Shown: positions 4,396 through 27,453 of the stretch, one piece after another
How the letters are laid out: every line of letters starts with the position of its first letter
How positions within the stretch are numbered: the first letter of the stretch is position 1
NCBI GenBank assembly: GCA_020439065.1
Contig: JAGQTK010000001.1
Location: 1 to 55,351, forward strand
DNA from: Microthrixaceae bacterium
Lineage (GTDB): Bacteria; Actinomycetota; Actinomycetes; Actinomycetales; Microbacteriaceae
Length of the DNA: 55,351 nt
Reading direction: 5' to 3'
Translations under genes and position numbers: made by a program
Notes under the pieces: model-generated
Databases searched by the model: none
What the model was told of the DNA's origin: nothing
Seen by the model: only the letters and a program-made list of their open reading frames with translations

Positions 4396-4417
4396 TCGTT
4401 GTGATCGCTCGTCTTGT

Positions 4418-4500
4418 TGTCCTGTCTCACCGGATCTGTAGAAATCTCATCTACCTGTAGAACGTCTCATCGGAGTTGTAGATTCTCACCCGAGTTGTAG
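4418..4500 (+). repeat. tnsA-proximal transposon end with four contiguous TnsB-type binding sites
   Basis: TCTCACCGGATCTGTAG (4425), TCTCATCTACCTGTAG (4445), TCTCATCGGAGTTGTAG (4465), TCTCACCCGAGTTGTAG (4484); about 20-bp spacing. Confidence 0.88.
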
Positions 4501-4611
4501 CTCGGCGGCGTGTTGTCGGTTCCGCGCCAGACAGCGGAGTAACTTTCGCGTCAAGTCAGGACCCGCACCGCGGAACACCTCCGCGGACTCCGGGGCCGAA
4601 CGGAGTCCGCA

Positions 4612-5355
4612 ATGACGCTGACAACCAACTGGCTTCAGGCGATCGATGGAACGAACGCCCTGGCGGCCACAATTCGATACTCGCTTCACGGGTTCGCTCG
4701 AGAATTGACACCGGCGGACGCTGGGGCGATCGCCTTCGAAGAGACGGCACCCGTCCGGAAATTCCCGGACTACCCACACAAGCGCAACGTTGAAGGCCGC
4801 TTCTGGCTCGCCTCGACGGGCCAGCACGTGCCCTTCGAGTCGTTCTGGGAGCGGGCGTTCCTGATGAGTCTCGATCGAACCCGGAGTGCGGAGGCGGTGT
4901 CGAGTCAGCCCATGTGGATTCATTGGCGCAGCCCGAAACGCCGCCATGCCCCCGACTACTTCGTTCGTCGCAAGGACGGCAGCGCGCTGCTTGTCGACGT
5001 CAGGGAGAGGTCAGACATCGAACCGGAGGATGCCGCAAAGTTCGAGCTCACCCGGAGGATGGCAGCTGCTCTCGGATGGGACTACCTCGTTTTCGACGAT
5101 CTACCCGGAGCGACCCAACAGAACCTGAGGTTTCTGCTGCGCTACCGTGACCCCCAGTGGCTCGAGGGCGTGGTTCTGGACGACCTGCCGGATTCTGGAA
5201 CGATTCGACTCGTCGACCTCGTCGCCCTCTTGGGAGACGTGAAGAACAGCGCACTTGGAGCGGCATACGCCCTTATATGGTCCGACGTCGCTCGATGCGA
5301 TCTCAGCCGTCCGCTGAGCATGTCCGCCACGGTCCGATTCGGGGTAGACCGATGA
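4612..5355 (+). CDS. tnsA: TnsA-like heteromeric transposase endonuclease subunit
   Basis: FESFWE, SQP and HAPDYF...LLVDVR PD-(D/E)xK-type motifs; first gene of the tns operon. Confidence 0.88.
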   Translation: MTLTTNWLQAIDGTNALAATIRYSLHGFARELTPADAGAIAFEETAPVRKFPDYPHKRNVEGRFWLASTGQHVPFESFWERAFLMSLDRTRSAEAVSSQPMWIHWRSPKRRHAPDYFVRRKDGSALLVDVRERSDIEPEDAAKFELTRRMAAALGWDYLVFDDLPGATQQNLRFLLRYRDPQWLEGVVLDDLPDSGTIRLVDLVALLGDVKNSALGAAYALIWSDVARCDLSRPLSMSATVRFGVDR

Positions 5356-7364
5356 TCGTCCATCCTGGCGACGTGGTGAGATGGAAGGACGAGGACCTGC
5401 AAGTCGTCGCTGTTCGGGCGACCTACACCACGCTGCGCAACGCAGAGATGGGCGAGGATCTCGAAGTGCTGAACGCCGATCTCGCTGAACGCGGCGAGCC
5501 GGCAACAGTGAGGTCGACGACCGACGTTTTGGATTTGGGCGTCCTTGACGAGCTCCCGCCCGCCGACCGCAGAGTCGTGGATGTCTGGCTCGAAGAGCTC
5601 GATCGACTCGCAGACCTCCTCGAAGGTGGGATGAAGAAGACGCCCGCCCACCAGGTGACCGTTGACCATGTGAATCGGCGACTTGGTACGGACTACAACG
5701 CGATAAAGGTGACGCGGCAGCTCGCCGCTCTCGACGAGTTCGGAGTCGCCGGGCTTCTCGATCGACGCCGATTCGGGATGGCGGACAGGCCCCGGTCGAC
5801 ACAGGATCCGCGTCTCATCGAAGCGATCGTCTCTGCGATGGATGGACAGACTCGAGCCTCAACCGGCACGGCAGACCGTCTGATCTGGATCGTGGAGCGG
5901 GACCTCGAGACCCGATACGGCAAAGGCGCGGTCGAGGTGCCGAGCAGGTCGACGATCTATCGCCTGATGGAACGCTTGGAAGCCGGACGGCACACATTCG
6001 GAACGGCGCGTACGCGCAGGACGACGGCAAACCAACCCAGCCACGTCTTCGGCAGTCGAACCGGTATGCGCCCCGGCGAGCAGGTACTGATCGACACGAC
6101 GCCGATGGAGATCCTCGTCGACTGCGACGGGGAGCAGGTACGTCCTGACCTCACGATCCTGCTCGACGAGTGCTCGCGAAGTGTTCCGGGGGCGATCGTG
6201 ACGATCGGCACGCGCAGCATCGATCTCGTTGTCCTGCTCGCCCGCGCTCTCGTCCCGTACGCCTACCGGCCCGAGGGCGTTCGCGCCAACCGTCGAAACA
6301 TCGCCCAAGCCTGGGTGGGAGACGACGCCCTCATTGCGCAACGCTTCGAGGACGCACGCGACGCGCAACAGTACATCTTCCCCGAGACCATCACCACAGA
6401 CCGAGGAGCATCCTATGTGTCGAGACACTTCACCGATGCATGTCGCACACTCGGCATCTCCCTGAACCTCGCGGCGGCATACACGCCTACTCAAAAGGCA
6501 AAGATCGAGCGCATGTTCCGCACGATCAAGAACCGCTTCACGCAGTACGTGGTCTCTTTTCTCGGCGAAAGCGCCGACATGCGCGGCGACGAGAGGTTCC
6601 CGACCGACCGGCTGCTCACGCTCGAACAACTGCAGGAGCTCCTCGAAGACTGGATCGCGGCAATCTGGCAGAACCGCCCCCACGGCTCGCTACGGGACCC
6701 ACGCCACCCGAAGTTCAAGCTCAGCCCGAATCAGATGGTGAGCGCATACCGGCAAGCCGTCCCCGAGCTGCTGATCCCACTCACCGCCGATCACTACATC
6801 GCACTGCTCCCAAAGAAATGGCGTGGAATCCATCACTACGGAGTGAACCTCGACCTCCGACGATACGACTCCGAAGCGCTGGGCACCCTGCGCAACAAGC
6901 GATCGCCTGATCGCCGGCACGCGGGTCAATGGCCGATTCACGTCGATCCATACAACCCCATGATCGTCTGGCTCCAACTCGAAGACGAGTTCATCCCCCT
7001 CAGCTGGCGATCCCCGTACTCGAATATGCCGATGGCCGATGAGATCTGGCGAATCGCACGCGCACAAGCCGCAGCGCGCGGTGAGGAAGCCCCGACGAAT
7101 GACGACCTGAACGAGGTCCTCCGCCGCTTCATGAGCACCGGCAACAAGTCCCTTACCTCACGCGATCGCAAGCGCGCGAAGTCGAACATGACAGACCCGC
7201 TCGGGATCACCAACCAGCTGGCGACGCTCTCCCCAGCATCTACGGACTCGGAGCGAGAGATCGCGCCGACCAGCAGCGACGACTCGACCGAAGAGGCTGG
7301 TGCATCCAGCTGGCCGGTGGCGCCTCCGTTCGGGCTCACGCGTCAAGCGGAAGGAACTGAGTGA
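5352..7364 (+). CDS. tnsB: TnsB-like DDE transposase (Mu-type C-terminal domain)
   Basis: ATGA overlap with tnsA; HTH PSRSTIYR; catalytic motifs LIDTT / TDRG / KIERMF; WQNRPH. Confidence 0.92.
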   Translation: MIVHPGDVVRWKDEDLQVVAVRATYTTLRNAEMGEDLEVLNADLAERGEPATVRSTTDVLDLGVLDELPPADRRVVDVWLEELDRLADLLEGGMKKTPAHQVTVDHVNRRLGTDYNAIKVTRQLAALDEFGVAGLLDRRRFGMADRPRSTQDPRLIEAIVSAMDGQTRASTGTADRLIWIVERDLETRYGKGAVEVPSRSTIYRLMERLEAGRHTFGTARTRRTTANQPSHVFGSRTGMRPGEQVLIDTTPMEILVDCDGEQVRPDLTILLDECSRSVPGAIVTIGTRSIDLVVLLARALVPYAYRPEGVRANRRNIAQAWVGDDALIAQRFEDARDAQQYIFPETITTDRGASYVSRHFTDACRTLGISLNLAAAYTPTQKAKIERMFRTIKNRFTQYVVSFLGESADMRGDERFPTDRLLTLEQLQELLEDWIAAIWQNRPHGSLRDPRHPKFKLSPNQMVSAYRQAVPELLIPLTADHYIALLPKKWRGIHHYGVNLDLRRYDSEALGTLRNKRSPDRRHAGQWPIHVDPYNPMIVWLQLEDEFIPLSWRSPYSNMPMADEIWRIARAQAAARGEEAPTNDDLNEVLRRFMSTGNKSLTSRDRKRAKSNMTDPLGITNQLATLSPASTDSEREIAPTSSDDSTEEAGASSWPVAPPFGLTRQAEGTE

Positions 7365-8455
7365 TGTTCGACGATCTGCTCGCCCAGTTCGACTTCGATG
7401 CCCCGACCGTGAACTTCGACTACACGACGAAGGAAGGATGGCGAGAGTTCGTCGAGTTCGATGCTCCACGACCCGCGCCTTGCACCATGAGCGAGTACGA
7501 AGCGATGGCCTCATCGGATCGATCCATCTACAACATCGCTCGCGAGCGCTTCATGTCAGTGGGTGCCCGTATCGCCACACCCTCACTTCGGAGATTCGTT
7601 GCGGCAGCCAGCAGCGCGATGGCCGACAATCGCTCGCCCGACGCGAGCAAATCCGGCGTCGTCATCTCCGGACGACCCAGCACGGGGAAGACGACGGCCG
7701 TCCAAGAATTCGGGCGAGCATATGAACGAGCTCGGCGAGAACGGGCAGGTACTCGAAGAAAGGACCTGATCCCCGTCGCTTTCGCTCAGGTGCCCACGCA
7801 CGCGACCGAGAAGACGATGATGAAAAAGCTTGCGGAGTTCTACGCGCTTCCGTTCTCTCAGACAGCATCGTACGAAACGCTGCTGGGGCGGGTGAGTAAC
7901 GTGATGCGAGCCTGTGAGACCGAGATCGTCATCATCGACGACATCCATCGCCTCGATCTGCGCTATCGCGCGAGCGAACAAGCGGCGGACGCGCTCAAGG
8001 AACTCTCGGAACGCTGCCCCGGAACGATGATCTACGCCGGAGTCAACGTCGCGCAGAACGGGCTCTTCTGGGGGTCGCGGGGAGAACAGATCATGGCCAG
8101 ATTCGAGACTGTCCAGTTCGACGAATATGACGTCGCAACAAACGAGGGAGCTGCGGTCTGGGGACGAGTCCTCACTGAACTTGAAGACTCGCTCTGTCTC
8201 ATCCGTCAGCATGAAGGCGACATTCTGAAGATTGCCGCGGAGCTTCGCGAAATCTCACGAGGATCGCTGGGACGCATGGCCAAGGCGATTCGCCGTTGCG
8301 CTCGCGATGCGATTCGTGATCGTTCCGAACAACTCGACCTGGACCATCTCCTGGTGGTTCTCGAGACGATACGGCGACTCGAAGATCGCGTAGCCGACGA
8401 AGCGGCACAGAGCACACGACGACCACGAGGGCGACGGGTGAAGGCTGGCCGATGA
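7361..8455 (+). CDS. tnsC: TnsC/TniB-like AAA+ ATPase
   Basis: Walker A GRPSTGKT, Walker B IIIDDIH; overlaps the tnsB stop. Confidence 0.9.
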   Translation: MMFDDLLAQFDFDAPTVNFDYTTKEGWREFVEFDAPRPAPCTMSEYEAMASSDRSIYNIARERFMSVGARIATPSLRRFVAAASSAMADNRSPDASKSGVVISGRPSTGKTTAVQEFGRAYERARRERAGTRRKDLIPVAFAQVPTHATEKTMMKKLAEFYALPFSQTASYETLLGRVSNVMRACETEIVIIDDIHRLDLRYRASEQAADALKELSERCPGTMIYAGVNVAQNGLFWGSRGEQIMARFETVQFDEYDVATNEGAAVWGRVLTELEDSLCLIRQHEGDILKIAAELREISRGSLGRMAKAIRRCARDAIRDRSEQLDLDHLLVVLETIRRLEDRVADEAAQSTRRPRGRRVKAGR

Positions 8456-9408
8456 GAGTGCTGCCGGCGACGGTCAGTCCGTTCCCGGGCGAAACCGTGC
8501 GGAGCCTTTACAACAGGCTCGTCGAACGCAACTCCCTGACGGCCGGAGAACTCTGGACCGCCATCCGCAAGTCGAAGCAGGGGCTTCCGTTGCGGACAAC
8601 GCCGGAGGCCGCCCCGGACGTGGTCGCGCAACTCGACGATCTGCCAGCGAACTGGTTCGACCGAGACGACACCACCCACCGACTCTTCAGCCGCTGCATC
8701 CACAACAACTGGGCCCGCGCGCAATGCCCGCGCTGTTCCCCGCTTCCCAAGCCGGTCACGATGTGTCGGCGGTGCTCGAGCGGGATGAACGTCGAGGTCC
8801 AATCTCGGGCCGGCGCCTTCTGCGCACGCCATAAGCGTTGGCACCGTGACGGACGCGACGAGGCGATCAGGATCCCCGTCGTATATGCCCGAGCAGAAAG
8901 ATGCCTCACCGGAACTCTATGGGCGCGTGGGATCGGCCTCGACACGGGCGAGATCGAGCTCGCCGGCGAAATCATCTCGACCTACCGTGAACTCGTCGAC
9001 GACGCTCTCTCCATCGGCGGCGCCGAGCAGCACATGCGTGACTTCTATCCTGAGGCTGTCGAACTGACCGCATTCCTCACGGCGCCTTCGATGCAGGCGT
9101 TCCTTCGCAACAGACAGATCGGGCACCTTCCCGTCGCCGCGATGGTCGAGGCAGCTGCGACGGCAGTCGCGTCGCGATCGCGGAACCAACTCGGCTCCGT
9201 GAATGAAATGTTCCAGGCCTCCGGCCGTGAACTACGACTCGGTGATTCAGCAACCAAGCCCCTGCGGCACGGGCGATCCCTTGAGATGGGGGCACTCGGC
9301 GTCCTGATCCGTGACAATGTCCCTCGCATTCGAGCGGTCTTTCTGCGCCACGACGACGCTCGTCGTCTATTGCCGACATTGCGCGACCAACCTTCACGCC
9401 ATCGATAG
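8452..9408 (+). CDS. tniQ: TniQ-like target selector 1
   Basis: N-terminal LPATVSPFPGETVRSLYNRL; Cys/His clusters CIH, CPRC, CRRC, CARH; follows tnsC. Confidence 0.75.
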   Translation: MRVLPATVSPFPGETVRSLYNRLVERNSLTAGELWTAIRKSKQGLPLRTTPEAAPDVVAQLDDLPANWFDRDDTTHRLFSRCIHNNWARAQCPRCSPLPKPVTMCRRCSSGMNVEVQSRAGAFCARHKRWHRDGRDEAIRIPVVYARAERCLTGTLWARGIGLDTGEIELAGEIISTYRELVDDALSIGGAEQHMRDFYPEAVELTAFLTAPSMQAFLRNRQIGHLPVAAMVEAAATAVASRSRNQLGSVNEMFQASGRELRLGDSATKPLRHGRSLEMGALGVLIRDNVPRIRAVFLRHDDARRLLPTLRDQPSRHR

Positions 9409-9413: not shown

Positions 9414-10460
9414 ATGCGTACCCTGCCCATTTACGTCGCCCCGGTGCCCGCCGAAACGGTCAGTGGCTATATCGGGCGCATCGCCCAGACGCACTGCCTG
9501 GAGGTTGGGGAGATTCGTCGCATGCTGATTCGAGAGGCGGAGCGTTCAACGTGGAGAGAAAACGATCCACGCATCACGCTCGCGCTCGCCCGGCTCTGCG
9601 GCCTGCCCGATGATGCACTCGAGGTGTCCTTCGAAGACCACGGGATGTGGACTCGCTGCGGTCATCCGCGCTGGAAGCCCCAGAAGTGCCCGCGGTGCCG
9701 CACGCTCGCCGAACCACGCACTGCCTGCGTGGAATGTGCCGGTGGACTCACAACCACTACCCGAGCGAGAAGCGGACCTCTCTGCCTGAAGCATGGCCGT
9801 TGGACGCTTCGCGGACTGGACACCAAGGTCTCCGTTGAGGCGTCCGCGAGCCACGCGGAAGAGACCCTGCGCGGACCACTGTGGGAGCGCGGCATCGCCT
9901 TGCACACCGGCGAATACAACCTCGCGGCCGCAGCGGTACTCGCGTGGTCCCAAGGAAGTGACGGTGAGACGTTCCTCGAGGAGCGGGCCCAACGGCTCGG
10001 CCTCCCTGCACCGACCACGTTTGAGGAGGTGATGCTATGTGCCTATCCCGAAGTAGTGAGAGTTGTCGAAGTCGCCATGAGCCCACGGATACTCCGCGGC
10101 GTCCTCCAGGTGTCGCGATCGGCACTGCCGCAGATCGATGGCTTCGCGAACGTCATCGCAACTGTGCTGGGTGCAACCGTAAACGAGCGACTGCACGACT
10201 GGGCGGGCGCCGTCATCGGGCACGCGCACCGCGCGGTCCTCTACGCTGCGGGGCTCAGGCGAACCACGAGCGCCAAGAACGCTCTATGCCCGCAAGATCG
10301 CGCGCTCATCGTCGCGTCCGGTACTCAACGGGCATGCCTGCTCCGACACGTCTCGCCACGAATACTGGACGGACTCATGCGAGGCCACACTGAGGGCACA
10401 TCGCGGCTGAGCGTGACCAGAAGATATCCCCTGGAACCAGATGAGTTGGCTCTGCCCTGA
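9414..10460 (+). CDS. tniQ: TniQ-like target selector 2 (paralogue of 8452-9408)
   Basis: LPIYVAPVPAETVSGYIGRI; CGH, CPRC, CVEC, CLKH; shares LW.RGI.L.TGE and YPE.V with selector 1. Confidence 0.75.
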   Translation: MRTLPIYVAPVPAETVSGYIGRIAQTHCLEVGEIRRMLIREAERSTWRENDPRITLALARLCGLPDDALEVSFEDHGMWTRCGHPRWKPQKCPRCRTLAEPRTACVECAGGLTTTTRARSGPLCLKHGRWTLRGLDTKVSVEASASHAEETLRGPLWERGIALHTGEYNLAAAAVLAWSQGSDGETFLEERAQRLGLPAPTTFEEVMLCAYPEVVRVVEVAMSPRILRGVLQVSRSALPQIDGFANVIATVLGATVNERLHDWAGAVIGHAHRAVLYAAGLRRTTSAKNALCPQDRALIVASGTQRACLLRHVSPRILDGLMRGHTEGTSRLSVTRRYPLEPDELALP

Positions 10461-10648
10461 TCTAGCGGCTGCGGAGATCCGGGGCGCCGTCCGGGACTAA
10501 ATCAGCCAGGGGCAGACCAAGCACCTGCGAGAGCGCGAGCATCGTTCGAAGCGTCGGGTTCGCCGGATTCCCCGGCCGCGACTCGCCCTTTTCGTACTTC
10601 TGATACGTGTAGCGCGTAGGGCCCGACCGATAGGCGACATCTTCCTGG

Positions 10649-12056
10649 GGTGACGTCCCGCTGAGTGGTGGAGAATCTCAACACCGTGCGGTCAGTGCTT
10701 TTTGATTATGCCGCGTTGAGTTCCGGGATCGCCACCTCCTCGTCGTTCGCGAACAGGAGCTTCATGGAGTGTTCGCTGAAGTAGCGGCGGTCGGCGCCGT
10801 CCCATTCGTCGTGCTGCTCGATCAGGACGTGCCCTGCGAGGCGCAGCAACGCGGCGGGGTTCGGGAATGTGCCGACGACGTCGGTGCGGCGTTTGATCTC
10901 CTTGTTCACGCGTTCCAGGGGGTTCGTGGACCAGATCTGCCGCCAGTGCTGTTGCGGGAATCCGCAGAACGCGAGGATGTCATTCTTCGCGTCCTCGAGC
11001 ATGTCCGCGATCTTCGGATGTGACCGGGTCAGCATCCGGACGACTTCGTGGAACTGGGCGAAGACGTGCTCGGTGTCTGGTTAGGCGAAGATCGTGCGGA
11101 TGATCGAGGCGACCATCGGACCTGACGCTTTCGGGACGTTGGAGAGCACGTTGCGCATGAAATGCACCCGACACCGTTGCCAGGAAGAGCCAGCGAACAC
11201 GGTCTCGATCGCGGAGATCAGACCCGTGTGGGCGTCGCTGATGACGAGCTTCACACCATCGAGTCCGCGGGCCTTCAAAGAACGCAGAAAGCTCGTCCAG
11301 AACGGCTGCGATTCGGTCTCTCCAACCTCGAAACCCAAGACCTCGCGGCGCCCATCGGCGGCGACACCAATGGCAACGACAACGGCCTGAGAGACCACTC
11401 GCCGGCCAACCCTGGCTTTGCAGTAGGTCGCGTCGAGAAACACATACGGATAGGTCGTGTCAGCCAGCGCACGGTCACGGAATGCGGCAACGTCCTCGTC
11501 CAGGTTCGCGCAGATCCGTGACACCTCGGACTTGCTGATCCCGGTATCGGCGCCGAGAGCTTTGACGAGATCATCGACCTTTCTCGTGCTCACGCCGTGA
11601 ACATAGGCCTCCATCACCACCGCAAACAGTGCCTGATCGACGCGGCGGCGCCGCTCCAGCAGCGAGGGGAAGAAGGACCCCTGTCGCAGCTTCGGGAGCC
11701 GCAACTCCAGGTCCCCGGCCGTCGTGGTCAGGGTGCGCGGGCGGGTGCCATTGCGTTGCGTGATTCGCTCAGCGCTGCGCTCGAATGGGGCGGCGCCGAT
11801 GAACGCGGCCGCTTCCGCATCGATCAGTTCCTGATAGAGCGTTTCGGTCGCGACACGGATCCGGTCGGTGACATCGGTGAGTTTCAGCTCCCCGAGAAGC
11901 TCGAGGAGGGCAGACTGGTCTAGAGCCATCGTGCTTTGTGTCTTTCTGTGAGAGAACTTTGATCGGTACTTCTCACTGACCATCGCACGATGGCTCACCC
12001 ACGTCTACGACGCAAACAACCCTGCCGAATCCTCCACCACTCCACGGGACGTCACC
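10649..12056 (-). mobile_element. IS256-family insertion sequence
   Basis: Terminal inverted repeats GGTGACGTCCCG..GAGTGGTGGAG; 8-bp TSD CTTCCTGG at 10641-10648 and 12057-12064. Confidence 0.93.
10706..11929 (-). pseudogene. IS256 transposase with an internal nonsense codon
   Basis: Mutator-type motifs (FLDATY, ISDAH, WQRCRVHF, STNPLERVNKEIKRR); in-frame TAA at 11081-11083 in IFA*PDT, likely CAA>TAA. Confidence 0.88.
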
Positions 12057-12189
12057 CTTCCTGGCTCAGCCCGGCACGTTCCCGCGCAGAACGAAGCGAG
12101 GTCGCAAAGCGCTGGGAGTACGCGCTCCACTCCGCTTCAATCTCGTCGTTCCGTCGGGCCACCTACCAAGCGTCTCGACGGGCCACTCC

Positions 12190-12233
12190 TCGTATGGCCT
12201 AATCGGTATGGCATAATTCGGAAGGCCATACGA
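12190..12233. promoter_or_regulatory. 11-bp inverted repeat operator between the divergent XRE and wHTH genes
   Basis: TCGTATGGCCT (12190-12200) and AGGCCATACGA (12223-12233), with a third GTATGGC half-site at 12206-12212. Confidence 0.65.
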
Positions 12234-12277
12234 AACAATCTCGTCCTCGTCGGATCGCTCCGCTCTTCCCTGCACGT

Positions 12278-12835: not shown

Positions 12836-12836
12836 C

Positions 12837-13082
12837 TTGACCGAGGAATATCCGCCGGAACTCCAGGGCCTTCTCAAGCGGATCGCTCCAGGCTGGCCAG
12901 AACTGCTGGAAGTCGGAGCCGGCTGGTACCCGCTGCTGACCAGACTCGATGCGACACTGTCGGTCATCGCCCCGAAATACGTCGTACAGCAGGTGAAATC
13001 GAAGTTTGGCGCCCTAAACTTCTACGCCGACCCGTCTGATGACCCGTCGAGCTTCGATGAGGCATTTACGGAGGCGGTGTGA
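12837..13082 (+). pseudogene. hypothetical protein truncated by IS3
   Basis: VGAGWYPLL...QVKSKFGALNFY; the stop codon is supplied by the first bases (TGA) of the IS3 end. Confidence 0.65.
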
Positions 13083-13121
13083 GGCTGACCCCGATTCCCG
13101 GACAGGTGGTTGGTTGGTTGG

Positions 13122-17218: not shown

Positions 17219-17250
17219 CCGAAACACCGAGACACGCTTCGTCCCAGGTA

Positions 17251-17351
17251 CTGACAACTCGGGTGAGACAGATTGGCGGTCGCGTCAGCGATTCCGCGTG
17301 ATTCCGGTGATCGTTCGTCTCATCTGATGACGACTCTCGCGAGAACGGACA
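17251..17351 (-). repeat. internal copy of the tnsA-distal transposon end
   Basis: CTGACAACTCGGGTGAGACA, TGATTCCGGTGATCG and CGCGAGA.CGGACA are shared with 27280-27384. Confidence 0.85.
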
Positions 17352-17379
17352 TCAGCGACTGTCCTGTCCCCTGGGACCG

Positions 17380-17732: not shown

Positions 17733-17749
17733 GCGTCGAGACGAGGGGA

Positions 17750-18940: not shown

Positions 18941-18959
18941 GGGGAAGCTCCTTTAAAAA

Positions 18960-18973
18960 CGAATGATCGTTCG
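18960..18973. promoter_or_regulatory. putative TetR operator
   Basis: Near-palindrome CGAATGATCGTTCG in the divergent intergenic region, next to TATACT (18975-18980). Confidence 0.5.
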
Positions 18974-19020
18974 CTATACTGAACCTTAGTACGATGATTG
19001 TCAACCTGGAGCCGGAGACG

Positions 19021-19659
19021 ATGCCGAAGATCAGTGACGAGCAACGCGACGCGAGACGCACCGAGATCATGAATGCTGCGCTGCGTTGCTTCGTGCGCTC
19101 GGGATACCAGCAGACCTCGATGGCCGACATCATCGCCGAGTCGGGGCTGTCCGCCGGCGCGATCTACAGCTACTTCTCGAGCAAGCAGGAACTCATCCGC
19201 GACGTCGCCGCCGGCGTGTTGGCGAACCGGCGCAGCGAACTCATCGCCGCGCAGCAGGATCACGTCCTGTCTCCGGCGGAGATCATCACGACGATCGCCG
19301 CCGGCTTCGGCAAGGACGCCCCGATCGAAGCACTGATCCAGACCTGGGCCGAAGCCACGGTCGATCCGGAGGTGCGAGATCTCGTGTTGAATGCGCTTGC
19401 CACGATGCGGACGGTCATCGTCGGCGCGCTGGCTCGGTGGGCAGAGAGCTTGCCCCGGCTGCCGGAAGGATGGGCCTCGGCTGAGGACTGGGCCGAGGTG
19501 AGTGCACCTGTGTTGATGAGCGTCCTGCCCGGCTTCGCCCTGCAACGCGCCATCGTCCCCGGATTCGACACCGCCCGCTTTCTCGACGCGCTCCCGACGT
19601 TGCTTCCGGGCCGCCCCGTACTGGCGACACGTTCTCACGCACCATCGCTGCCTGACTGA
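19021..19659 (+). CDS. TetR/AcrR-family regulator
   Basis: TSMADIIAESGLSAGAIYSYFSSK HTH. Confidence 0.92.
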   Translation: MPKISDEQRDARRTEIMNAALRCFVRSGYQQTSMADIIAESGLSAGAIYSYFSSKQELIRDVAAGVLANRRSELIAAQQDHVLSPAEIITTIAAGFGKDAPIEALIQTWAEATVDPEVRDLVLNALATMRTVIVGALARWAESLPRLPEGWASAEDWAEVSAPVLMSVLPGFALQRAIVPGFDTARFLDALPTLLPGRPVLATRSHAPSLPD

Positions 19660-19685
19660 GTCGGCAGCACTGAAAGGAGACGACG

Positions 19686-20366
19686 ATGAGGTTTCTGCTC
19701 CGCCACTGGTACGACCTGGGTCTCGCGCTCGCGATCGCCACTCTCGTGTGGCAGGCGTTCGCACAATATGACGGGCTTCGCCTGATCCTGCTGCTGAACC
19801 TCGTGGTGATCTCCCTCCATCAGTACGAGGAGTATCACTGGCCCGGGGGAGGCCCGTGGATGATCAACGTGGTTCTCGGCACGAAAGACGCCACGGTCGA
19901 CAGATACCCGCTGAACCAGCTCAACGCGTTGCTGAACAACTTCGTCCTGTGGCTCCTCTACCTGCTGCCCGTGATCTGGCCTGAGACGATCTGGCTCGGC
20001 CTCGGCGCGGTCCTCGTGGGTTTCGGCCAGCTGTTCGCGCACGGCGTGCAATGCAACATCAAGCTCAAGACCTGGTACAACCCCGGGCTCGCCACCGTCA
20101 TCATCGGCCACGTCCCGCTGGGTATCTGGTACCTCGTGGAGGTGTACCGCAACGACCTCATCAGCGGATGGGACTGGGTCGGGGCCATCGCCTACGTCCT
20201 GGTCGTCATGGGGATCATCGTCGGGGTGGGGTTCGTTCTGATGGGCAACAAGACCTCCCCTCATCCGTTCGCACGAGAGGAACTCGTCAGGTCGAACGCG
20301 GTGCGGCACCTCACCCGACTGGGGATCGCTCTGCCCGAAGCGCTGCTCCCCGAGTCGCATGCTTGA
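19686..20366 (+). CDS. HXXEE-domain membrane protein
   Basis: LHQYEEY motif, FAHG, YNPGL; multiple TMs; RBS GAAAGGAG. Confidence 0.85.
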   Translation: MRFLLRHWYDLGLALAIATLVWQAFAQYDGLRLILLLNLVVISLHQYEEYHWPGGGPWMINVVLGTKDATVDRYPLNQLNALLNNFVLWLLYLLPVIWPETIWLGLGAVLVGFGQLFAHGVQCNIKLKTWYNPGLATVIIGHVPLGIWYLVEVYRNDLISGWDWVGAIAYVLVVMGIIVGVGFVLMGNKTSPHPFAREELVRSNAVRHLTRLGIALPEALLPESHA

Positions 20367-21420
20367 GCTGGCAGAGCAGTTGCTCCCGATTCTGCACGCG
20401 GGAACGCGCGTCGCGGCGATCTCGGTGACGAGGGTCGCCCAAAGTGCGCCTCGCGGCGTCGGGGCGAGCATGGCGGTGACGGCTGACGGGAAGGTCATCG
20501 GCTCCATCTCCGGTGGCTGCGTCGAAGGCGACGCCGTCATGCTGGGACTGAGGGTTCTGCGCGAGGGGATCGGGCGGACCGCGAGTTTCGGGTTCGATGA
20601 CGAAGCCGCCCACGCCGCCGGGCTCGCGTGCGGCGGTGCGATCGACGTCGTCGTCTATCCCGTCACGCGGGAGCATGTCCCGATTCTCGAGCGAGTCGTC
20701 GACGGCGAGGCGGCAGCGATCGGTGTCTACGCTTCCGGCCCTCGGTGCGGCCAGACGGTGATGAGTCCGCCTGCGTTCGCCGCATCCGCTGTCGCGGGGC
20801 GCGAGAGCGTGCTGTTTCCCGCCGAGAACGAGCAGGCCGCCGATCTTCTGCTGCTTTCACGAGCGCCGCGTCCCCGGCTCATCATCCTCGGCGCCGGGGA
20901 GCATGGGGCTGCACTCTGTCGGATCGCTGCGGCCGCGGGCTACGCGGTATCGGTCTGCGACGCGTGGGGCACGCTCGTGACGCGCGACCGGTTCCCTGAC
21001 GCCGAGCAGCTCATCATCGACCTGCCGCACGAATATCTGGCCACGCTTAGGCCCGGGGATGTCGATGCGCGCACGGCGGTCTGTGTCCTCACGCACGACG
21101 AGCGAGTCGACATCCCCGCGCTGCAGCTCGCGTTGAGGATGCCCGTCGGGTTCGTTGGCGCGCTGGGTGCGCGTCGAACGGCGGCCCATCGGGAAACCGT
21201 GCTGCGACGATCAGGTCTGGATGAAGACGCGATCGCGCGGCTCCACTCGCCACTGGGGCTCGACCTCGGCGGATCCAGTCCCGTCGAGACTGCGCTGTCG
21301 ATCCTCGCTGAGATCACTTCTTCTCGGTACGCCGGGTCGGGGCTACCGCTTCGTGACCTTTCGGGTTCTCTGCATCATGACGTCGGCATCGAAGCGGATA
21401 GCCGGAGGCTGGTCGGATGA
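20359..21420 (+). CDS. xdhC: XdhC/CoxI-family molybdenum-cofactor chaperone
   Basis: GSISGGCVE, GLACGG, LTHD, LHSPLGLDLG. Confidence 0.9.
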   Translation: MLELAEQLLPILHAGTRVAAISVTRVAQSAPRGVGASMAVTADGKVIGSISGGCVEGDAVMLGLRVLREGIGRTASFGFDDEAAHAAGLACGGAIDVVVYPVTREHVPILERVVDGEAAAIGVYASGPRCGQTVMSPPAFAASAVAGRESVLFPAENEQAADLLLLSRAPRPRLIILGAGEHGAALCRIAAAAGYAVSVCDAWGTLVTRDRFPDAEQLIIDLPHEYLATLRPGDVDARTAVCVLTHDERVDIPALQLALRMPVGFVGALGARRTAAHRETVLRRSGLDEDAIARLHSPLGLDLGGSSPVETALSILAEITSSRYAGSGLPLRDLSGSLHHDVGIEADSRRLVG

Positions 21421-22028
21421 GCACGCGCGATTCAGATGCAACAGCTCCTCGGCTGTGCGGACTCGTCCTCGCAGCCGGGGCCGGCCGCCGCTACGGTGTG
21501 CCGAAGGCTCTGGTCCGCGATTCCGACGGCACGCCGTGGCTCACGCGTGCCGTCGACGCACTCCGACAGGGCGGATGCGATGACGTGGTGGTCGTGCTCG
21601 GCGCGCAAGCCGAAGAGGCCCGGAAGCTTGTGCCGGACCGAACGATGATCGTGCCCATCGAGGGTTGGCCGGAGGGGATGGCGGCGAGTCTGCGCGCCGG
21701 TCTGTCGGATCCCTCGTGCCGGGCAGCAGATGCCGTCGTCGTCATGCCGGTGGACACGCCGGATGCTTCTCCCCGCGCACTTCATCGGCTTGTCGCAACT
21801 TCGGCGTCGCGCACGCGCAATGCCCTTGCGCAGGCGACCTATGGCGGGAACCCTGGACATCCGGTGCTTCTCGGTCGAGATCATCTCGACGACATCGTGC
21901 GCATGCTGCACGGCGACGCGGGAGCCCGGGAGTACTTGGTCGCTCATGGCGTGTGCGAGGTCGAATGTGGGGATATCTGGTCGGGCGATGACGTCGACGT
22001 TCCTGTCGGTGCCGGGGTTCCGGGATGA
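21417..22028 (+). CDS. molybdenum cofactor cytidylyltransferase (MocA-like)
   Basis: LVLAAGAGRRYG.PKAL, GMAASL, PVDTP, GHPVL, GDAGAR. Confidence 0.88.
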   Translation: MSTRDSDATAPRLCGLVLAAGAGRRYGVPKALVRDSDGTPWLTRAVDALRQGGCDDVVVVLGAQAEEARKLVPDRTMIVPIEGWPEGMAASLRAGLSDPSCRAADAVVVMPVDTPDASPRALHRLVATSASRTRNALAQATYGGNPGHPVLLGRDHLDDIVRMLHGDAGAREYLVAHGVCEVECGDIWSGDDVDVPVGAGVPG

Positions 22029-22576
22029 CGTCGAAGATCGGGGTCGAGATGCAGGACGTGGTGCTGTCGGTGAACGGCGAGACGCATGCGCTCACGGTGG
22101 ATCCGCGCGAGAGCCTGCTCGACGTCCTCCGCGAGCGGGTCGGATTGACCGGGAGCAAGAAAGGCTGCGATCAGGGTGCGTGCGGTGCATGCACGGTGCT
22201 GGTCGACGGCGTGCGCACCGCCAGCTGCCTGGCGCTGGCCGTGCAGTACGGCGACGGACGTGCGATCACCACGATCGAAGGTGTCGGCGATTCCGAGAAT
22301 CCGCACCCGATGCAGCGGGCGTTCGTCGCACGGGACGGGTTGCAATGCGGGTACTGCACGCCCGGGCAGATCTGCTCAGCCATCGGGATGCTCGCAGAGT
22401 TCCAGGCGGGATGGCCGAGCGTCGTCACCGCCGACATCTCCGCTGGTCCCGAGCACCTCGACGATGGTGAGATCAGAGAACGGATGAGCGGCAACCTGTG
22501 TCGCTGCGGAGCACACAACGGCATCGTCGACGCCATCCGAGACGTCGCCACCGAAGCGGGGAGCGTCGCCCCGTGA
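22025..22576 (+). CDS. xanthine-dehydrogenase-family 2Fe-2S subunit (PaoA/YagT-like, no Tat signal seen)
   Basis: KKGCDQGACGAC, QCGYCTPGQ, GNLCRC. Confidence 0.93.
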   Translation: MTSKIGVEMQDVVLSVNGETHALTVDPRESLLDVLRERVGLTGSKKGCDQGACGACTVLVDGVRTASCLALAVQYGDGRAITTIEGVGDSENPHPMQRAFVARDGLQCGYCTPGQICSAIGMLAEFQAGWPSVVTADISAGPEHLDDGEIRERMSGNLCRCGAHNGIVDAIRDVATEAGSVAP

Positions 22577-23568
22577 AGACTTTCACGTTCTCCCGCGCCG
22601 CCGACACGGACTCGGCACTGCACACCCTGGCGCAGCCGGGAACGCGGGCTCTTGCGGGTGGCACGAATCTCGTCGACCTGATGCGCCGGGGAGTGGAGCG
22701 ACCGGACGGCATCGTCGACATCACCTCGTTGCCCCTCTCCGACGTGGCCGAACTCCCCGACGGGTCGATCCGCATCGGCACCACCGTGCGCAACAGCACT
22801 CTCGCGGCGCACCCCCTCATCCGGGAGAGATATCCCCTGCTGAGTCGGGCGCTCCTGTCCGGGGCATCGGGTCAGATCCGCAACATGGCTACCGTGGGCG
22901 GCAACCTTCTGCAGCGCACCCGTTGCCTGTACTTCATGGACGTCGAATCAGGGGTGGGGTGCAACAAGCGCGAACCGGGCAGCGGGTGCGGGGCGCGAGG
23001 CGGGTTCCAGCGTGATGCCGCGATCTTCGGTGCCAGCGACCAGTGCATCGCCGTGCACCCCTCCGATATGGCGGTCGCACTGGCGGCCCTCGACGCCGTG
23101 GTCGAGGTGCAGAGCACGACCGGCATCCGGCGGGTCCCCATCGGGGACTTGCATCGCCTCCCCGGGGACATGCCGCAGCTCGACACCACGCTCGATCCCG
23201 GAGAGCTGATCATCGCGGTCGAGCTGCCTCCGGCGATCTCGGCCCGATCGACCTATCGAAAAGTGCGCGATCGAGCCTCTTTCGCGTTCGCCCTGGTTTC
23301 TGTGGCAGCCGTTCTCGTCATCGAGGATGGCCAGATCACGGCAGCGCAGATCGCTCTCGGTGGCGTCGCGTCGCAGCCGTGGCGGGCGCGGGAGGCGGAA
23401 CGGGCGCTGATAGGAGCGGAGCCGACGAGAGACGGCTTCCGGCGCGCTGCCGACGCAGAACTCGCCGCGGCTGAAGGGCTTCCCGGCAACATGTTCAAGA
23501 TCGAACTTGCCAGACGAACCCTAGTGAGCGTTCTCGCAGAGCTCGCCGCCGAGGAGTCGGAGCGATGA
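22573..23568 (+). CDS. xanthine-dehydrogenase-family FAD subunit (PaoB/YagS-like)
   Basis: AGGTNLVD, ASGQIRNMATVGGNL, Cys-rich insert, YRKVRDRASFAF. Confidence 0.92.
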   Translation: MKTFTFSRAADTDSALHTLAQPGTRALAGGTNLVDLMRRGVERPDGIVDITSLPLSDVAELPDGSIRIGTTVRNSTLAAHPLIRERYPLLSRALLSGASGQIRNMATVGGNLLQRTRCLYFMDVESGVGCNKREPGSGCGARGGFQRDAAIFGASDQCIAVHPSDMAVALAALDAVVEVQSTTGIRRVPIGDLHRLPGDMPQLDTTLDPGELIIAVELPPAISARSTYRKVRDRASFAFALVSVAAVLVIEDGQITAAQIALGGVASQPWRAREAERALIGAEPTRDGFRRAADAELAAAEGLPGNMFKIELARRTLVSVLAELAAEESER

Positions 23569-25829
23569 CGCCGTCTCGCCAGCGGCCGACCTTCGAGAGC
23601 CCCGCCGCCTCCTCGTCGGTCGGCAAGGCGGTCGATCGAGTCGACGGGCCGCTCAAAGCAGCGGGTTCGGCCAAATACGCTGCCGAATACGACTATCCGG
23701 ATCTCGCCTACGCCGCCTTGACGTACTCGACCATCCCTCGCGGCCGGATCGTCGACATCGACACGCACGCTGCGCAGGGACACCCCGGGGTGGTATCGGT
23801 CATCACCCATCTCACTGCGCCGGAGATGACTCCGATCCGACGCCTCAACCCGCTGGTCCCCGGAAGCTTCACCTCCGGCACGCTGGTCAACTACCTCAAC
23901 ACCGGCCAAGTGCACTGGAACGGACAACCCGTCGCACTCGTCGTCGCGGAGACGCTCGAGGCCGCGCAGGAGGCAGCCCGCCTCGTGCACGTCACCTACG
24001 AGGCATCGCCTGCGACGGTCGACTTCGAGACGGAGCGGCACAAAGCGGAGCAGAAGAAGAGCCTCGTGAACACCCTCATGGGCGGTGATGCCGCTGTCGG
24101 CGACGCCGATGCCGCGCTGAAGGTCGCTCCGGTGAGCGTCGATCGGATGTACAGCACGCCCTACGAGAACCACAACGCCATGGAACTCCATGCGACGACG
24201 GCGATCTGGGAGGGCGGGCGGCTCACCGTCCATGACAACACCCAGAACATCGACTGGACGCGCAAGCACCTGGCGATCAAGTTCGGTCTGAAGGCGCGGG
24301 ACATCCGCGTCATCGCAACCTATGTCGGCGGCGGCTTCGGTGGAAAGTCGTCCGTGTGGGCGGTCACCGTGCTCGCCGCGCTGGCGGCGCAGGTCACCGG
24401 GCGCCCGGTGCGGATGATGCTGACCCGCGAAGGCGTCTACCGCACAGTCGGAGCGCGAAGCCCCACATCTCAACGCGTTGCTCTGGGTGCCGGCCATGAC
24501 GGCCGGCTCACCGCCCTCGTGCACGAGGGAGTCTCGCAGATCGGTCGCGTGGGTGGTCTACCCGAACCGGTCACCGCACAGTCCGGCCACATGTACGCGA
24601 CGCCGAACATCCGCCTGAGCGTCGCGACGGTCGAGACGGACACGCTGCCGAACACCTTCATGCGAGCGCCCGGTGAGGCTGTCGGCTCGTTCGCGCTCGA
24701 GTCGGCGATCGACGAACTCGCCACCGAACTGGATGTCGACCCGATCGAGCTGCGACGGCGAAACGAGCCGGAGCGAAGCCCTGTCGACGGCAAGCCGTTC
24801 ACGCGTCGTGACATGGACTCCGTATACGCGCGAGGTGAGCAGCTCTTCGGGTGGGGTGACCGCCCTTCGGGGCAACGAGCCGTCCGAGACGGGCGATGGC
24901 TGGTCGGCACGGGTATGGCTTCCGCGTTCTACCTGCCGGCCCGCGTCACCGCAGATGTCTCGGTGCGCCTCAACGCCGACGGAACCGTGCTCGTCCGCTG
25001 CGCCTTCCACGAGATCGGAGTGGGCGCCGCGACCGCCCAAGCGCAGATCGCCGCAGACGCACTGGGTGTGCCGTTCAGCGCCGTCACCGTGGAACACGGC
25101 GACAGCGAACAGCCCGTCGGCCCTGGTGCGTTCGCATCGGCACAGACCGCGAGCGTCGCGGCCAGCATCCTCGTCGCCTGTGAGCTGCTCACCCGCGATC
25201 TCGAACGAGTCGCCCGTCGGAACGGGCAAGGGCGAGAAGTCGGCGCCCCAGGTTCGCCGGCCGCCGCCTCCGCGGTGCTCCGGCGAGCCGGGCTCACACA
25301 TCTCGAAGTCCGCACCGGTTCGGACACCGCAATGGGACGCGCGGTCTCGCAGGCGCGACTGGTCGGAATGATCCTCAACGACCGGCGCCGGTTCGTCAGG
25401 GCGGCAACCGGCGCCCACTTCTGCGAGGTACGCGTCGACGTCGACACCGGCGAGGTCCGCGTCACGCGATGGCTCGGAGTCTTCGACGTCGGAAGGGTCA
25501 TCAACCCCAAGCTCGCCTCGAGCCAACTACGGGGCGGGATTATCATGGGCCTCGGAGCTGCGCTGTTCGAGGAGGCGCTCGTCGACCCGCGCACCGGCCG
25601 AGTCATGAACGCCGGAATGGCGGACTATCACGTTCCCGTCCACGCCGACCTACCGCACATCGACATCGACTATCTCGACGACCCCGATCCCACGACACCG
25701 CTGGGACTGCTCGGCCTCGGCGAAGTCGGAATCACCGGTGTGGCAGCGGCTGTCGCGAACGCCGTCTTCCACGCGACCGGAGTCCGCGTCCGCGACCTGC
25801 CCATCACCCTTGACCAGCTGCTGACCTGA
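23565..25829 (+). CDS. xanthine-dehydrogenase-family molybdopterin subunit (PaoC/YagR-like)
   Basis: VGGGFGGK, MRAPGE, GLGEVG, ANAVFHATG.R.RDLP. Confidence 0.93.
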   Translation: MTPSRQRPTFESPAASSSVGKAVDRVDGPLKAAGSAKYAAEYDYPDLAYAALTYSTIPRGRIVDIDTHAAQGHPGVVSVITHLTAPEMTPIRRLNPLVPGSFTSGTLVNYLNTGQVHWNGQPVALVVAETLEAAQEAARLVHVTYEASPATVDFETERHKAEQKKSLVNTLMGGDAAVGDADAALKVAPVSVDRMYSTPYENHNAMELHATTAIWEGGRLTVHDNTQNIDWTRKHLAIKFGLKARDIRVIATYVGGGFGGKSSVWAVTVLAALAAQVTGRPVRMMLTREGVYRTVGARSPTSQRVALGAGHDGRLTALVHEGVSQIGRVGGLPEPVTAQSGHMYATPNIRLSVATVETDTLPNTFMRAPGEAVGSFALESAIDELATELDVDPIELRRRNEPERSPVDGKPFTRRDMDSVYARGEQLFGWGDRPSGQRAVRDGRWLVGTGMASAFYLPARVTADVSVRLNADGTVLVRCAFHEIGVGAATAQAQIAADALGVPFSAVTVEHGDSEQPVGPGAFASAQTASVAASILVACELLTRDLERVARRNGQGREVGAPGSPAAASAVLRRAGLTHLEVRTGSDTAMGRAVSQARLVGMILNDRRRFVRAATGAHFCEVRVDVDTGEVRVTRWLGVFDVGRVINPKLASSQLRGGIIMGLGAALFEEALVDPRTGRVMNAGMADYHVPVHADLPHIDIDYLDDPDPTTPLGLLGLGEVGITGVAAAVANAVFHATGVRVRDLPITLDQLLT

Positions 25830-25888
25830 TCGTCGTTCAACCCACCAAAGGAAGCGCCGCCACGCGGCATCGACACACGGAGGTACTG

Positions 25889-26566
25889 ATGAGTTCACTG
25901 ATGGATCGTTACCGCAAGAACTGGCCCCGAGTCGGCGCGGTCGCCGCGATGGCCCTCGGCGGGGCGAGCGTGCTGGCATTCACGCGGAAGAAGCCGGGAA
26001 ACGTCCGGGCCCTCGCCGTCATGAACTCGATGACGATGTCGGCGCACCAGTACGAGGAATACGTCGACCCCGGCGACTTCCCCGGAATGGCGAACCGCGT
26101 TCTGTTTAAGAGCGGCCAGCCCCGCAACTGGCCGATGAACGCGCAAGGTCTGATGTGCGCGAACTGGGGCTTCAGCGCCCTGTACATCCCACCGATCCTG
26201 TTCCCCAAGGTGAAATGGCTGGTTCTTCCTGGAGCCGTCCTCGGGATCTTCCAGGCCTTCGCGCACGGCGTGCTCATGCCGCGCGCCGCACACACGCACT
26301 ACAGCCCGGGGATGATCACGTCGACCCTGCTGCATGTGCCGATCGGCATCGCCACCATTCGTGCTGTGCGCGCCGAGCAAGGCATCACGAAGGGCGACTG
26401 GGGCAAGACGATCGCCATGCTGGCGGGATTCTTCGCCGTCGGCGTCATCCTGCCCAACGCCGCCTATGCGAAGCGTGACTCGCCCTATCCCGTCAGTGAC
26501 GCCCAGCTCGGGAAATGGGCCGACGAACCGCTGCAGAAGAAGCGCCCATCCAAGCGCGGACGCTGA
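25889..26566 (+). CDS. HXXEE-domain membrane protein (second copy, divergent)
   Basis: AHQYEEY, FAHG, YSPGM, HVPIG; RBS GGAGG. Confidence 0.85.
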   Translation: MSSLMDRYRKNWPRVGAVAAMALGGASVLAFTRKKPGNVRALAVMNSMTMSAHQYEEYVDPGDFPGMANRVLFKSGQPRNWPMNAQGLMCANWGFSALYIPPILFPKVKWLVLPGAVLGIFQAFAHGVLMPRAAHTHYSPGMITSTLLHVPIGIATIRAVRAEQGITKGDWGKTIAMLAGFFAVGVILPNAAYAKRDSPYPVSDAQLGKWADEPLQKKRPSKRGR

Positions 26567-27279
26567 GCGGGTTCAAGCCAAGTCGCTGGCATCGGTCTTC
26601 ACTCGTTCGCCGGGCACCCCTGACTCGCCACACCGATAGTCCTACCCTGAGTCCTCCGCCGCCTCGAATCGATCGCCATCCGAGGAGTGCGATCGCGCCA
26701 GATACATGGCAGATGGCTCTCAAATCTGCTCCGCTGGCGAAGCTCGGCCGTCGGGTTAGTGTCTCCGCGGCGATGCAGCAACCTAGGAGAGGGCGACGAC
26801 GCCGAGCAACAGGACGGCAGGGAGAGTATCCGTCAGAGAGAGCCAGACGTTGATCGCGACCGCGACCCCTAGAGCAATCGTGCGCCCCACATGTAGCGCA
26901 GGGCAGAACCTGTCGGGCGCCTGGCCGCGTGGGGCGAACAGCGCCGGACGTACGAGCGCGGCCACTCAGAACCCGGACGTGACCAACGCTGCGGCGGTGT
27001 TGAATGCTGCCAACCACCAGAGCGTCGAAGCCCTTCTTCGGAGTCGCCGGGTCACCTGGCCTAGCCGACGTTGCCCCGCCCACGGTGTCGCGCCACCTGA
27101 AGTTCCTCAAGGAGGTCGACATGCTCGCTTCCGAACGACGTGAGTCAGTGAATCGTGGTGATCGCTGACGAAGCCGGAATCGCAATTCGACGGGCAAAAA
27201 TCCGTTACTCATCCTTGGGTGAGCAAATACGTCGCCTGCCACCCGACTGAAACCCAACTACGTGCTCTTGGCGCAGATT

Positions 27280-27384
27280 CTGACAACTCGGGTGAGACAA
27301 ATCAAAGCAGGAGGGCGTTCGAGATCTCGGATGATTCCGGTGATCGCGCGTCTCACTTCGTGACAGTTGTCGCGAGATCGGACA
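27280..27384 (-). repeat. tnsA-distal end of the Tn7-like element
   Basis: Spaced inverted TnsB-type sites; ends GAGATCGGACA followed by TSD CTTGT. Confidence 0.88.
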
Positions 27385-27389
27385 CTTGT

Positions 27390-27453
27390 TGTCCGATCTC
27401 ATCGGAGCTGTCCATTCCTCACGCACCTGTCACAACTTCTCATCGAGCCAGGT
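27390..27453 (+). mobile_element. tnsA-proximal-type end of an older, decayed Tn7-like element
   Basis: TGTCCGATCTCATCGGAGCTGTC, CCTCACGCACCTGTC, TCTCATCGAGCCAGGTC; starts immediately after the TSD; no tns genes follow. Confidence 0.75.

What the first reader, a model, noticed from the sequence alone, without database searches (positions are those of the whole stretch)
4413..27453. Stacked insertions at one position: end-TSD-end junction
Seen: 27374-27400 reads GAGATCGGACA-CTTGT-TGTCCGATCTC. This is a distal end, the same 5-mer that precedes 4418, then a new proximal-type end with three decaying TnsB sites. Inference: the 23-kb element inserted at exactly the base used earlier by a relative and pushed the older element away from the target. 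This indicates base-precise, orientation-specific targeting from the left flank, and escape from target immunity.
Basis: partly seen in the sequence, partly recalled or inferred. Interest (0 to 1): 0.75.

Follow-up and report, generated by a model that had tools for sequence, protein, structure and literature searches.

The report
Transposon stack at small-RNA promoter
A Tn7-like transposon sits exactly in front of an older transposon end, at a chromosomal spot beside a predicted, unannotated small-RNA gene that many different Tn7-like transposons use across Microbacterium; the stacking is a known habit of this family, while the landing site appears to be undescribed.

Summary
The junction is real. 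CTTGT flanks a tnsABC + 2x tniQ element (4418-27384), and 27390 is a genuine proximal transposon end. A profile built only from other genomes finds just 4418 and 27390 at E<0.001 in the 2.26-Mb genome. An independent contig, L117, joins 4417 to 27390 across one CTTGT, as predicted. The site lies 62 nt from a conserved TATAAC-N6-RTAAC motif in the predicted promoter of an unannotated ~105-nt RNA with covarying stems. In 33 of 39 tniQ-positive genus genomes examined, elements of several TnsB clades (35-40% identical) sit beside this block, same end first, often stacked. So one-sided, oriented targeting is well supported, with precision of about +/-2 bp. 'Escape from immunity' is not shown: the old end is no closer to the incoming element's end than other clades' ends are, and it has no partner end or tns genes. 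The 23-kb unit is itself a composite, with a fossil junction at 17351-17434. The contig is probably chimeric at 4284-4314, left of the junction. Stacking at Tn7 att sites is known; this att site was not found in my literature searches.

The parts
4240..4345 (-). Predicted ~105-nt small RNA, unannotated: 5' hairpin, invariant core, terminator-like 3' hairpin
   Evidence: Hit in 60 of 60 genus genomes with the flank query; core pattern in 135 of 200 family genomes; covariation in helices 1 and 3; fold z -4.8; no Rfam match at gathering score
4284..4314 (.). 31-nt near-invariant core; probable chimeric assembly join between two species
   Evidence: L117 identical to the window only from 4284; contigs of 4 of 4 runs that hold the left flank stop matching at 4314 or within this core; duplicate ABC-marR-DUF2207 block on contig C72
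4352..4372 (-). Predicted -10 box (TAnnnT, 4352-4357, minus strand) overlapping the TATAAC-N6-RTAAC repeat (4356-4372, plus strand); best candidate for the recognised sequence
   Evidence: Motif in 55 of 56 block copies from the element survey and 30 of 30 loci from the family search; the sigma-70 scanner found nothing
4413..4417 (+). Target-site duplication CTTGT, left copy
4418..4502 (+). Proximal end (right end by Tn7 convention), four TnsB-type sites
   Evidence: 95-96% to G269 and G351 ends
4612..5355 (+). tnsA
   Evidence: NF033179 TnsA_like_Actin 182 bits; PF08722
5352..7364 (+). tnsB, 670 aa
   Evidence: rve_3; 96-97% to G269 and G351
7361..8455 (+). tnsC (AAA+)
   Evidence: PF05621, AAA_22
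8452..9408 (+). tniQ-1, 318 aa
   Evidence: PF06527 E 8e-4, below cut-off; 30% to tniQ-2
9414..10460 (+). tniQ-2, 348 aa; the likely selector, orthologous to the single TniQ of other clades
   Evidence: PF06527; model pLDDT 89; N-terminal part matches TniQ 8fcu_P, Z 6.4, rmsd 2.4, 68 aligned
17238..17351 (+). Inner distal end, 73% to the outer distal end
   Evidence: 39 bits
17352..17434 (+). Fossil stacked junction: 8-nt spacer, 9 nt identical to the 4418 end start (17360-17368), 55-nt tnsB fragment (17380-17434, 93% to 6761-6815)
27271..27384 (+). Outer distal end
   Evidence: 37 bits; same terminal 11 nt as the TSD-confirmed G269 distal end
27385..27389 (+). Target-site duplication CTTGT, right copy
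27390..27449 (+). Older proximal-type end, three TnsB-type sites; no partner end or tns genes found
   Evidence: directly after the block in L117
27664..29329 (-). ECF sigma plus CU044_5270 anti-sigma pair, likely leftover cargo of the older island
   Evidence: matches in 13 of 400 genus genomes

Best explanation
A 23-kb Tn7-like composite with tnsABC and two short tniQ genes sits between two CTTGT copies directly in front of an older transposon end, and it likely got there because its TniQ binds a conserved sequence in the predicted promoter of a host small-RNA gene and sets TnsC/TnsAB a fixed ~62 bp away, where the earlier element had already landed. Shown: both ends, the 5-bp duplication, the strain without the element, and the shared site, orientation and distance across genomes. 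Inferred: TniQ binds TATAAC-N6-RTAAC or the adjoining RNA gene; the recognised sequence survives each insertion, so newcomers land at or within a few bases of the old junction and push older layers outward; stacked layers can later move together by their outermost ends, which would explain the inner junction at 17351; immunity was likely weak or absent here because the old end is of another clade or already crippled.
For: L117 = 4417 joined to 27390 with one CTTGT. Of 41 tniQ-positive genus genomes, 39 were fetched; 33 have an element or stack beside the block, tns-proximal end first. First TCTCA-type end 59-72 nt from TATAAC in 31 loci, 19 of them at 61-63, with background 0.0015 per 50 nt. 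The last ~15 nt before the cut are not conserved, and two host sequence types at +28 to +50 give the same distance. A 5-bp duplication with a distal end was found in 10 of 19 relatives tested (9, G008). Clades with longer reach insert inside older proximal ends and duplicate 5 bp of them (G407, G140), as a ruler predicts. One-sided recognition and retention of the site after insertion are documented for Tn7-likes (PMC11406308 passages; 10.1101/2025.07.27.667033 passages).
Against: No binding or transposition data. 6 of 39 genomes show no block in the fetched DNA (G194, G255, G258, G309, G402, G432), and L137, G652 and the G172 plasmid copy are elsewhere. 9 of 19 relatives gave no matched distal end in the fetched DNA. 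L145 and L150 look like 4- and 6-bp duplications. The TniQ C-terminal part has no recognisable DNA-binding fold. The motif is family-wide while this TniQ family is in 2 of 296 genomes of other genera. No independent contig spans 4417|4418 or 27384|27390 with 31 nt each side. L117 could in principle be a precise deletion, not a pre-insertion allele.
Confidence: 0.78

Rival explanations
1. True escape from target immunity: the incoming TnsB recognises the old end, yet these elements have weak or no immunity and re-insert beside kin.
For: Same-clade neighbours occur: the inner junction has a 93%-identical tnsB fragment; G140 has an X-type end before an X-type end; G053 has a Y-type end inside a Y-type end; G427, G004, G440 and G245 have U-type ends before U-like ends. 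All TCTCA-type ends share a core, so cross-recognition is possible. Natural Tn6022 also re-inserts despite strong immunity in the lab (PMC11014353 passages and section 15).
Against: 27390 scores 60 against 4418, within the cross-clade range 32-72 and far below same-clade 108-114. In the same-clade cases the older end is broken or diverged. All 6 within-contig pairs of intact TnsBs are 35-40% identical.
Confidence: 0.25
2. TniQ does not read the DNA alone but is recruited by a host protein bound at the TAAC repeats (an OmpR-type regulator such as MtrA or GlnR, motif likeness recalled) or by RNA polymerase at this promoter.
For: Both TniQs are core-sized (318 and 348 aa); selectors that act alone are usually >400 aa (PMC10293859 passages). 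No HTH extension is seen in the model. The repeat has 11-bp period and overlaps the predicted -10 to -35 region.
Against: The regulator identity is recalled, not tested. The C-terminal ~190 residues are basic in part and of unknown fold, so they could bind DNA directly.
Confidence: 0.2
3. Reverse order or recombination: the old end arrived after the 23-kb unit, or the arrangement arose by recombination between islands, and L117 is a deletion product.
For: CTTGTTGTCC is a 10-nt direct repeat at both junctions; the older unit's distal end was not found.
Against: 27390 lies at the same +62 position in L117 as first ends do in other genomes; a second insertion 23 kb from the block has no target.
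Confidence: 0.07
4. Artefact or host DNA: the 27390 motif is ordinary host sequence, or the junction is misassembled.
For: The contig is a metagenome bin and is probably chimeric at 4284-4314.
Against: 27390 scores as a proximal end. Block copies without an end show no such motif. The 5-bp duplication and near-identical elements in G269 and G351 argue against a false join at the ends.
Confidence: 0.05

Closest known systems
Tn7 at attTn7 (glmS), including islands with an older remnant plus a newer element (PMC11014353 section 15, read whole; PMC11406308 passages)
   Same: TnsABC plus TniQ-domain selector, TGT/ACA ends with site arrays, 5-bp duplication, fixed distance and orientation, target retained after insertion, layered islands.
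   Different: The site is the promoter side of a predicted small-RNA gene, not the 3' end of a coding gene; no TnsE seen; selectors are 318 and 348 aa without a long TnsD tail; several TnsB clades share the site at different reaches.
Tn6022/AbaR at comM (PMC11014353 passages and section 15)
   Same: Repeated local insertions read from duplications; composite movement capturing neighbouring DNA.
   Different: No comM disruption; no TnsF or TnsE found after tniQ (an XRE gene and two small ORFs follow in some clades only).
Dual TniQ-TnsD Tn7-like loci (PMC10293859 passages)
   Same: Two tandem TniQ paralogues, 30% identical.
   Different: There one is usually >400 aa; here both are core-sized, and single-TniQ clades hit the same site.
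Actinobacteria-dominated Tn7-like clade 2 (10.1101/2021.08.23.457393 passages)
   Same: Host group; TnsA_like_Actin match.
   Different: That paper says none was characterised experimentally; I saw no att site given in the passages read; placement in the clade was not tested.

Membership tests
Tn7-like transposon | tnsA, tnsB, tnsC operon | tested here: met
Tn7-like transposon | TniQ-domain target selector | tested here: met
   PF06527 above cut-off for tniQ-2, below for tniQ-1; structure match to TniQ, Z 6.4
Tn7-like transposon | TGT/ACA ends with asymmetric TnsB-site arrays and 5-bp duplication | tested here: met
Tn7-like transposon | Single att site, fixed orientation and distance | tested here: met
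   33 of 39 genomes
Tn7-like transposon | Target immunity | not testable with these tools
   Needs a transposition assay; genome evidence is mixed
Prototype Tn7 (TnsD/glmS, TnsE) | Long TnsD and insertion downstream of glmS | tested here: not met
   TniQs of 318 and 348 aa; flank is the non-coding block
CRISPR-associated transposon | cas effector genes and array or guide | tested here: inconclusive
   No Cas family among the 20 ORFs scanned and no array among the repeats shown; not all ORFs were scanned
Tn6022/AbaR | Insertion in comM via TniQ+TnsF | tested here: not met
   Site is intergenic; genes after tniQ are XRE and small ORFs
Tn5053/Tn402 res hunters | No TnsA, own resolvase (definition recalled) | tested here: not met
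   TnsA present
Described RNA families (Ms1, 6C, SRP, tmRNA, tRNA) for the target RNA | Rfam or ARAGORN match | tested here: not met
   only sub-threshold hits to the terminator hairpin
Expressed small RNA | Transcript with defined ends and strand | tested here: inconclusive
   RNA run X15 holds pieces of the region, contigs only; covariation and G-U pairs favour a minus-strand RNA

The most novel reading that the evidence does not exclude
A radiation of Microbacterium Tn7-like elements uses a minimal TniQ, with an unrecognised C-terminal fold or a borrowed host regulator, to home on the promoter/operator of an undescribed family-wide small RNA. Clades partition the site by reach (about 62, 65 and 72-80 bp), so longer-reach clades insert into and break the ends of earlier ones, lifting immunity and building cargo composites layer by layer.
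Probability: 0.35. Interest if true: 0.72.

Novelty: new variant of a known kind. Interest (0 to 1): 0.5.

Why it matters
The junction alone is ordinary Tn7 biology. What it leads to is less so: a defined att site, distance and orientation for an actinobacterial Tn7-like group with no characterised member in the papers I read, a compact selector that could give a neutral integration site for Microbacteriaceae, a natural series of stacks in which clade specificity of target immunity can be tested, and a conserved small-RNA candidate missing from Rfam.

Tried and rejected
my junction pattern was one base too long, missed the own genome, and its single hit in 401 genomes (L031) is unrelated host DNA beside a riboswitch-like sequence (likeness recalled); discarded. 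One search used a wrong tnsB frame; corrected. The tree is the quick version with a long-branch warning; I rely on pairwise identities. Search for the older element's distal end: no ACA+CTTGT other than 27382 in the window or genome; a weak distal-like remnant on C451 (E 0.006) lacks the terminus. Laying contigs on 16500-31500 gave no cover at 27021-27521 in 4 runs; uninformative. Viral contigs: 0 hits for the old end. PLSDB: only short Streptomyces tnsB pieces. Foldseek: no match at E<=0.001; the C-terminal part was not folded alone, so no claim of a new fold. Helix 2 was mis-registered in my input and is not counted. RNAalifold proposed a different 5' pairing without covariation. Sigma-70 and terminator scanner: 0 hits. 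The three-gene module after tniQ is absent from several clades that use the site, so it was rejected as the selector partner. Earlier-findings look-ups returned nothing. Literature: nine searches listed no paper on this site or RNA; 'Microbacterium' is absent from the 3 held supplements of PMC10293859 and 'Microbacteri' from the main text of PMC9130861. Parks and Peters 2009 was not held (its account of multi-element attTn7 islands is recalled only). bioRxiv supplements, including the element table of 10.1101/2021.08.23.457393, were not seen and may list these elements.
Full report
Observation. The sequence is as described: CTTGT at 4413-4417 then a TGT end at 4418; a distal end closing at 27384, CTTGT, and a second TGT end at 27390. 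The genes behind 4418 are tnsA, tnsB, tnsC and two tniQ (tnsB starts at 5352). A profile made from 9 proximal ends of other genomes finds only 4418 (64 bits) and 27390 (23 bits, E 1e-4) below E 0.001 in the 2.26-Mb genome; a profile of 10 distal ends finds 17351 and 27384, plus a weak remnant on C451. I use 'proximal' for the end before the tns genes; Tn7 convention calls it the right end (PMC11406308 passage).

The predicted allele exists. One exact match to the flank in the metagenome collection, L117, reads block-CTTGT-27390 with a single CTTGT and differs from the window at 7 of 881 bases after the join. The 5-mer duplicated by the 23-kb unit is therefore the one directly before the older end, so both proximal junctions are at the same base. 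In run X1 a 246-nt contig follows 4316-4430 with one difference and then leaves, and X1 has no cover at 27021-27521. This hints at a third end at the same base, but its letters were not shown. No independent contig spans the element's own junctions with 31 nt on each side.

The target. The flank 4241-4405 is conserved non-coding DNA: all 60 genus genomes hit the flank query, and its core pattern is in 135 of 200 family genomes, control 0. On the minus strand it reads as a -10 box whose T-A and final T stay fixed while the middle varies, then about 105 nt with a 5' hairpin (5 of 8 pairs with two-sided changes) and a 3' hairpin (9 of 14), with 0 of 500 shuffles as high and slid controls lower, in 21 sequences (the structure was drawn from these sequences, which favours it). 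Rfam has no match at gathering score. A TATAAC-N6-RTAAC repeat over the predicted promoter is present in 55 of 56 block copies and 30 of 30 family loci. Expression is not shown.

The site is a genus-wide att. TniQ-2 has relatives in 41 of 400 genus genomes and in 2 of 296 genomes of other genera. I fetched 39 of the 41 (not G049 or G360). In 33 an element or stack begins beside the block with the tns-proximal end facing it; 6 showed no block in the fetched DNA. Among 9 further loci, 5 are at the block, 1 (L137) is inside a permease-like gene and 3 are cut off. Among 16 genomes picked by flank only with the right side visible, 6 carry an end there. The first TCTCA-type end lies 59-72 nt from TATAAC in 31 loci, 19 at 61-63; other end types lie mostly at 60-90. 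Distal ends with a matching 5-bp duplication were found in 10 of 19 relatives tested. Sequence next to the cut is variable, and two host types that differ at +28 to +50 give the same distance, so the recognised sequence is likely TATAAC-N6-RTAAC or further left. This is inference. Kin are not independent, and one genome per species was sampled.

Stacking is common and graded. End-spacer-end junctions appear in G407, G140 (two contigs), G440, G427, G004, G245 and L140 with spacers of 2-17 nt, against 0 in the rest of the own genome. Longer-reach clades insert inside older proximal ends and duplicate 5 bp of them. The window's zero offset is the cleanest point of this range. The 23-kb unit is itself two layers: an inner distal end at 17351, 8 nt, the first 9 nt of a 4418-type end and a 93%-identical tnsB fragment. 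The 5-mer after 17351 is not CTTGT, so the two layers most likely arrived together by the outer ends.

Immunity. The old end aligns ungapped at 44 of 60 with the G365 end (score 72) and scores 60 with 4418; same-clade ends score 108-114 and cross-clade 32-72. G365's TnsB is 41.6% identical to the window's. All 6 within-contig pairs of intact TnsB are 35-40% identical. The old unit has no tns genes and no matched distal end in the 68.7%-complete genome. Same-clade neighbours do occur, each beside a broken or diverged older end, and the breakage may have come later. Tn6022 shows strong immunity in assays yet re-inserts in nature (PMC11014353, passages and section 15). Escape is possible but not needed and not shown.

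Selector. The TniQ-2 model (56 sequences, pLDDT 89) matches TniQ only in its N-terminal ~115 residues (8fcu_P, Z 6.4); the rest was barely tested. Both TniQs are core-sized, whereas stand-alone selectors are usually larger (PMC10293859 passages). Direct binding is my first choice and host-factor recruitment the second.

Assembly caveat. Contig C72 of the same bin repeats window 1-3622 in the same gene order at 67-74% identity and ends in a GGC run. L117 links C72 (99.9%) to the window's block from 4284 on. Contigs of all 4 runs that hold 3300-4314 stop matching within 4284-4314, and the loose ends listed for X1, X11 and X15 continue with the usual form of the RNA. The window's first 4.3 kb therefore probably belong to another species (about 75%). 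The 134 nt left of the insertion are confirmed by L117, so the targeting argument stands.

Verdict. Real, and a member of the Tn7-like family. Stacking is known (older island plus newer Tn7e at glmS in PMC11014353 section 15). The att site at a small-RNA promoter, shared by several clades with short TniQs, was not found in nine literature searches, which cover open-access text only. Interest 0.5.

Noticed in passing
window 1-4314; own contig C72: Probable chimeric join in the 31-nt RNA core; the bin holds two orthologous ABC-marR-DUF2207 blocks at 67-74% identity.
   Followed up: yes
window 4240-4345 (-): Unannotated small-RNA candidate, core in 135 of 200 family genomes, often in two copies in Microbacterium (G052, G142, G172, G009, G038, G050).
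   Followed up: partly
L079 5021-5160 (plasmid p1-HA-8 as titled) and L114 14123-14259: A second 140-nt site, 99% identical in two genomes, with elements of different clades on both sides; candidate plasmid att site or second TniQ pathway.
   Followed up: partly
window 10466-13088: XRE regulator plus two small ORFs conserved after tniQ in several clades; here the XRE gene is split by an IS256-type element (about 10648-12056) whose transposase has an in-frame stop at 11081.
   Followed up: partly
window 13090-14140: An IS3-like element read on the minus strand, apparently with broken frames (from sequence inspection, no family scan).
   Followed up: no
window 14139-17218: Cargo: large ORF without Pfam match, ASCH protein, zinc-ribbon protein; 65-70% similar DNA in G427, G004, G245 and G052 islands; possible defence genes.
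   Followed up: no
window 17750-26566: Cargo of the second layer: ABC-2 permease, XdhC, MobA-like, xanthine-dehydrogenase-type three-subunit operon, HXXEE protein.
   Followed up: no
L145 18040-18100; L150 12580-12640: Apparent 4-bp and 6-bp target duplications instead of 5.
   Followed up: no
L137 7009 onward: Element with the same protein identities as G059's in a Leucobacter record, inserted inside a permease-like gene away from the block.
   Followed up: no
L096 (G017) and L097 (G023), just after the block: Proximal ends with no tns genes detected; G017 has a distal end 1.4 kb on: non-autonomous remnants like 27390.
   Followed up: partly
own contig C451 19226-19322: Degenerate distal-end-like sequence without the terminal ACA.
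   Followed up: partly
window 36439-36523: ARAGORN tRNA-like call with a four-base anticodon inside an ABC transporter gene; likely spurious.
   Followed up: no
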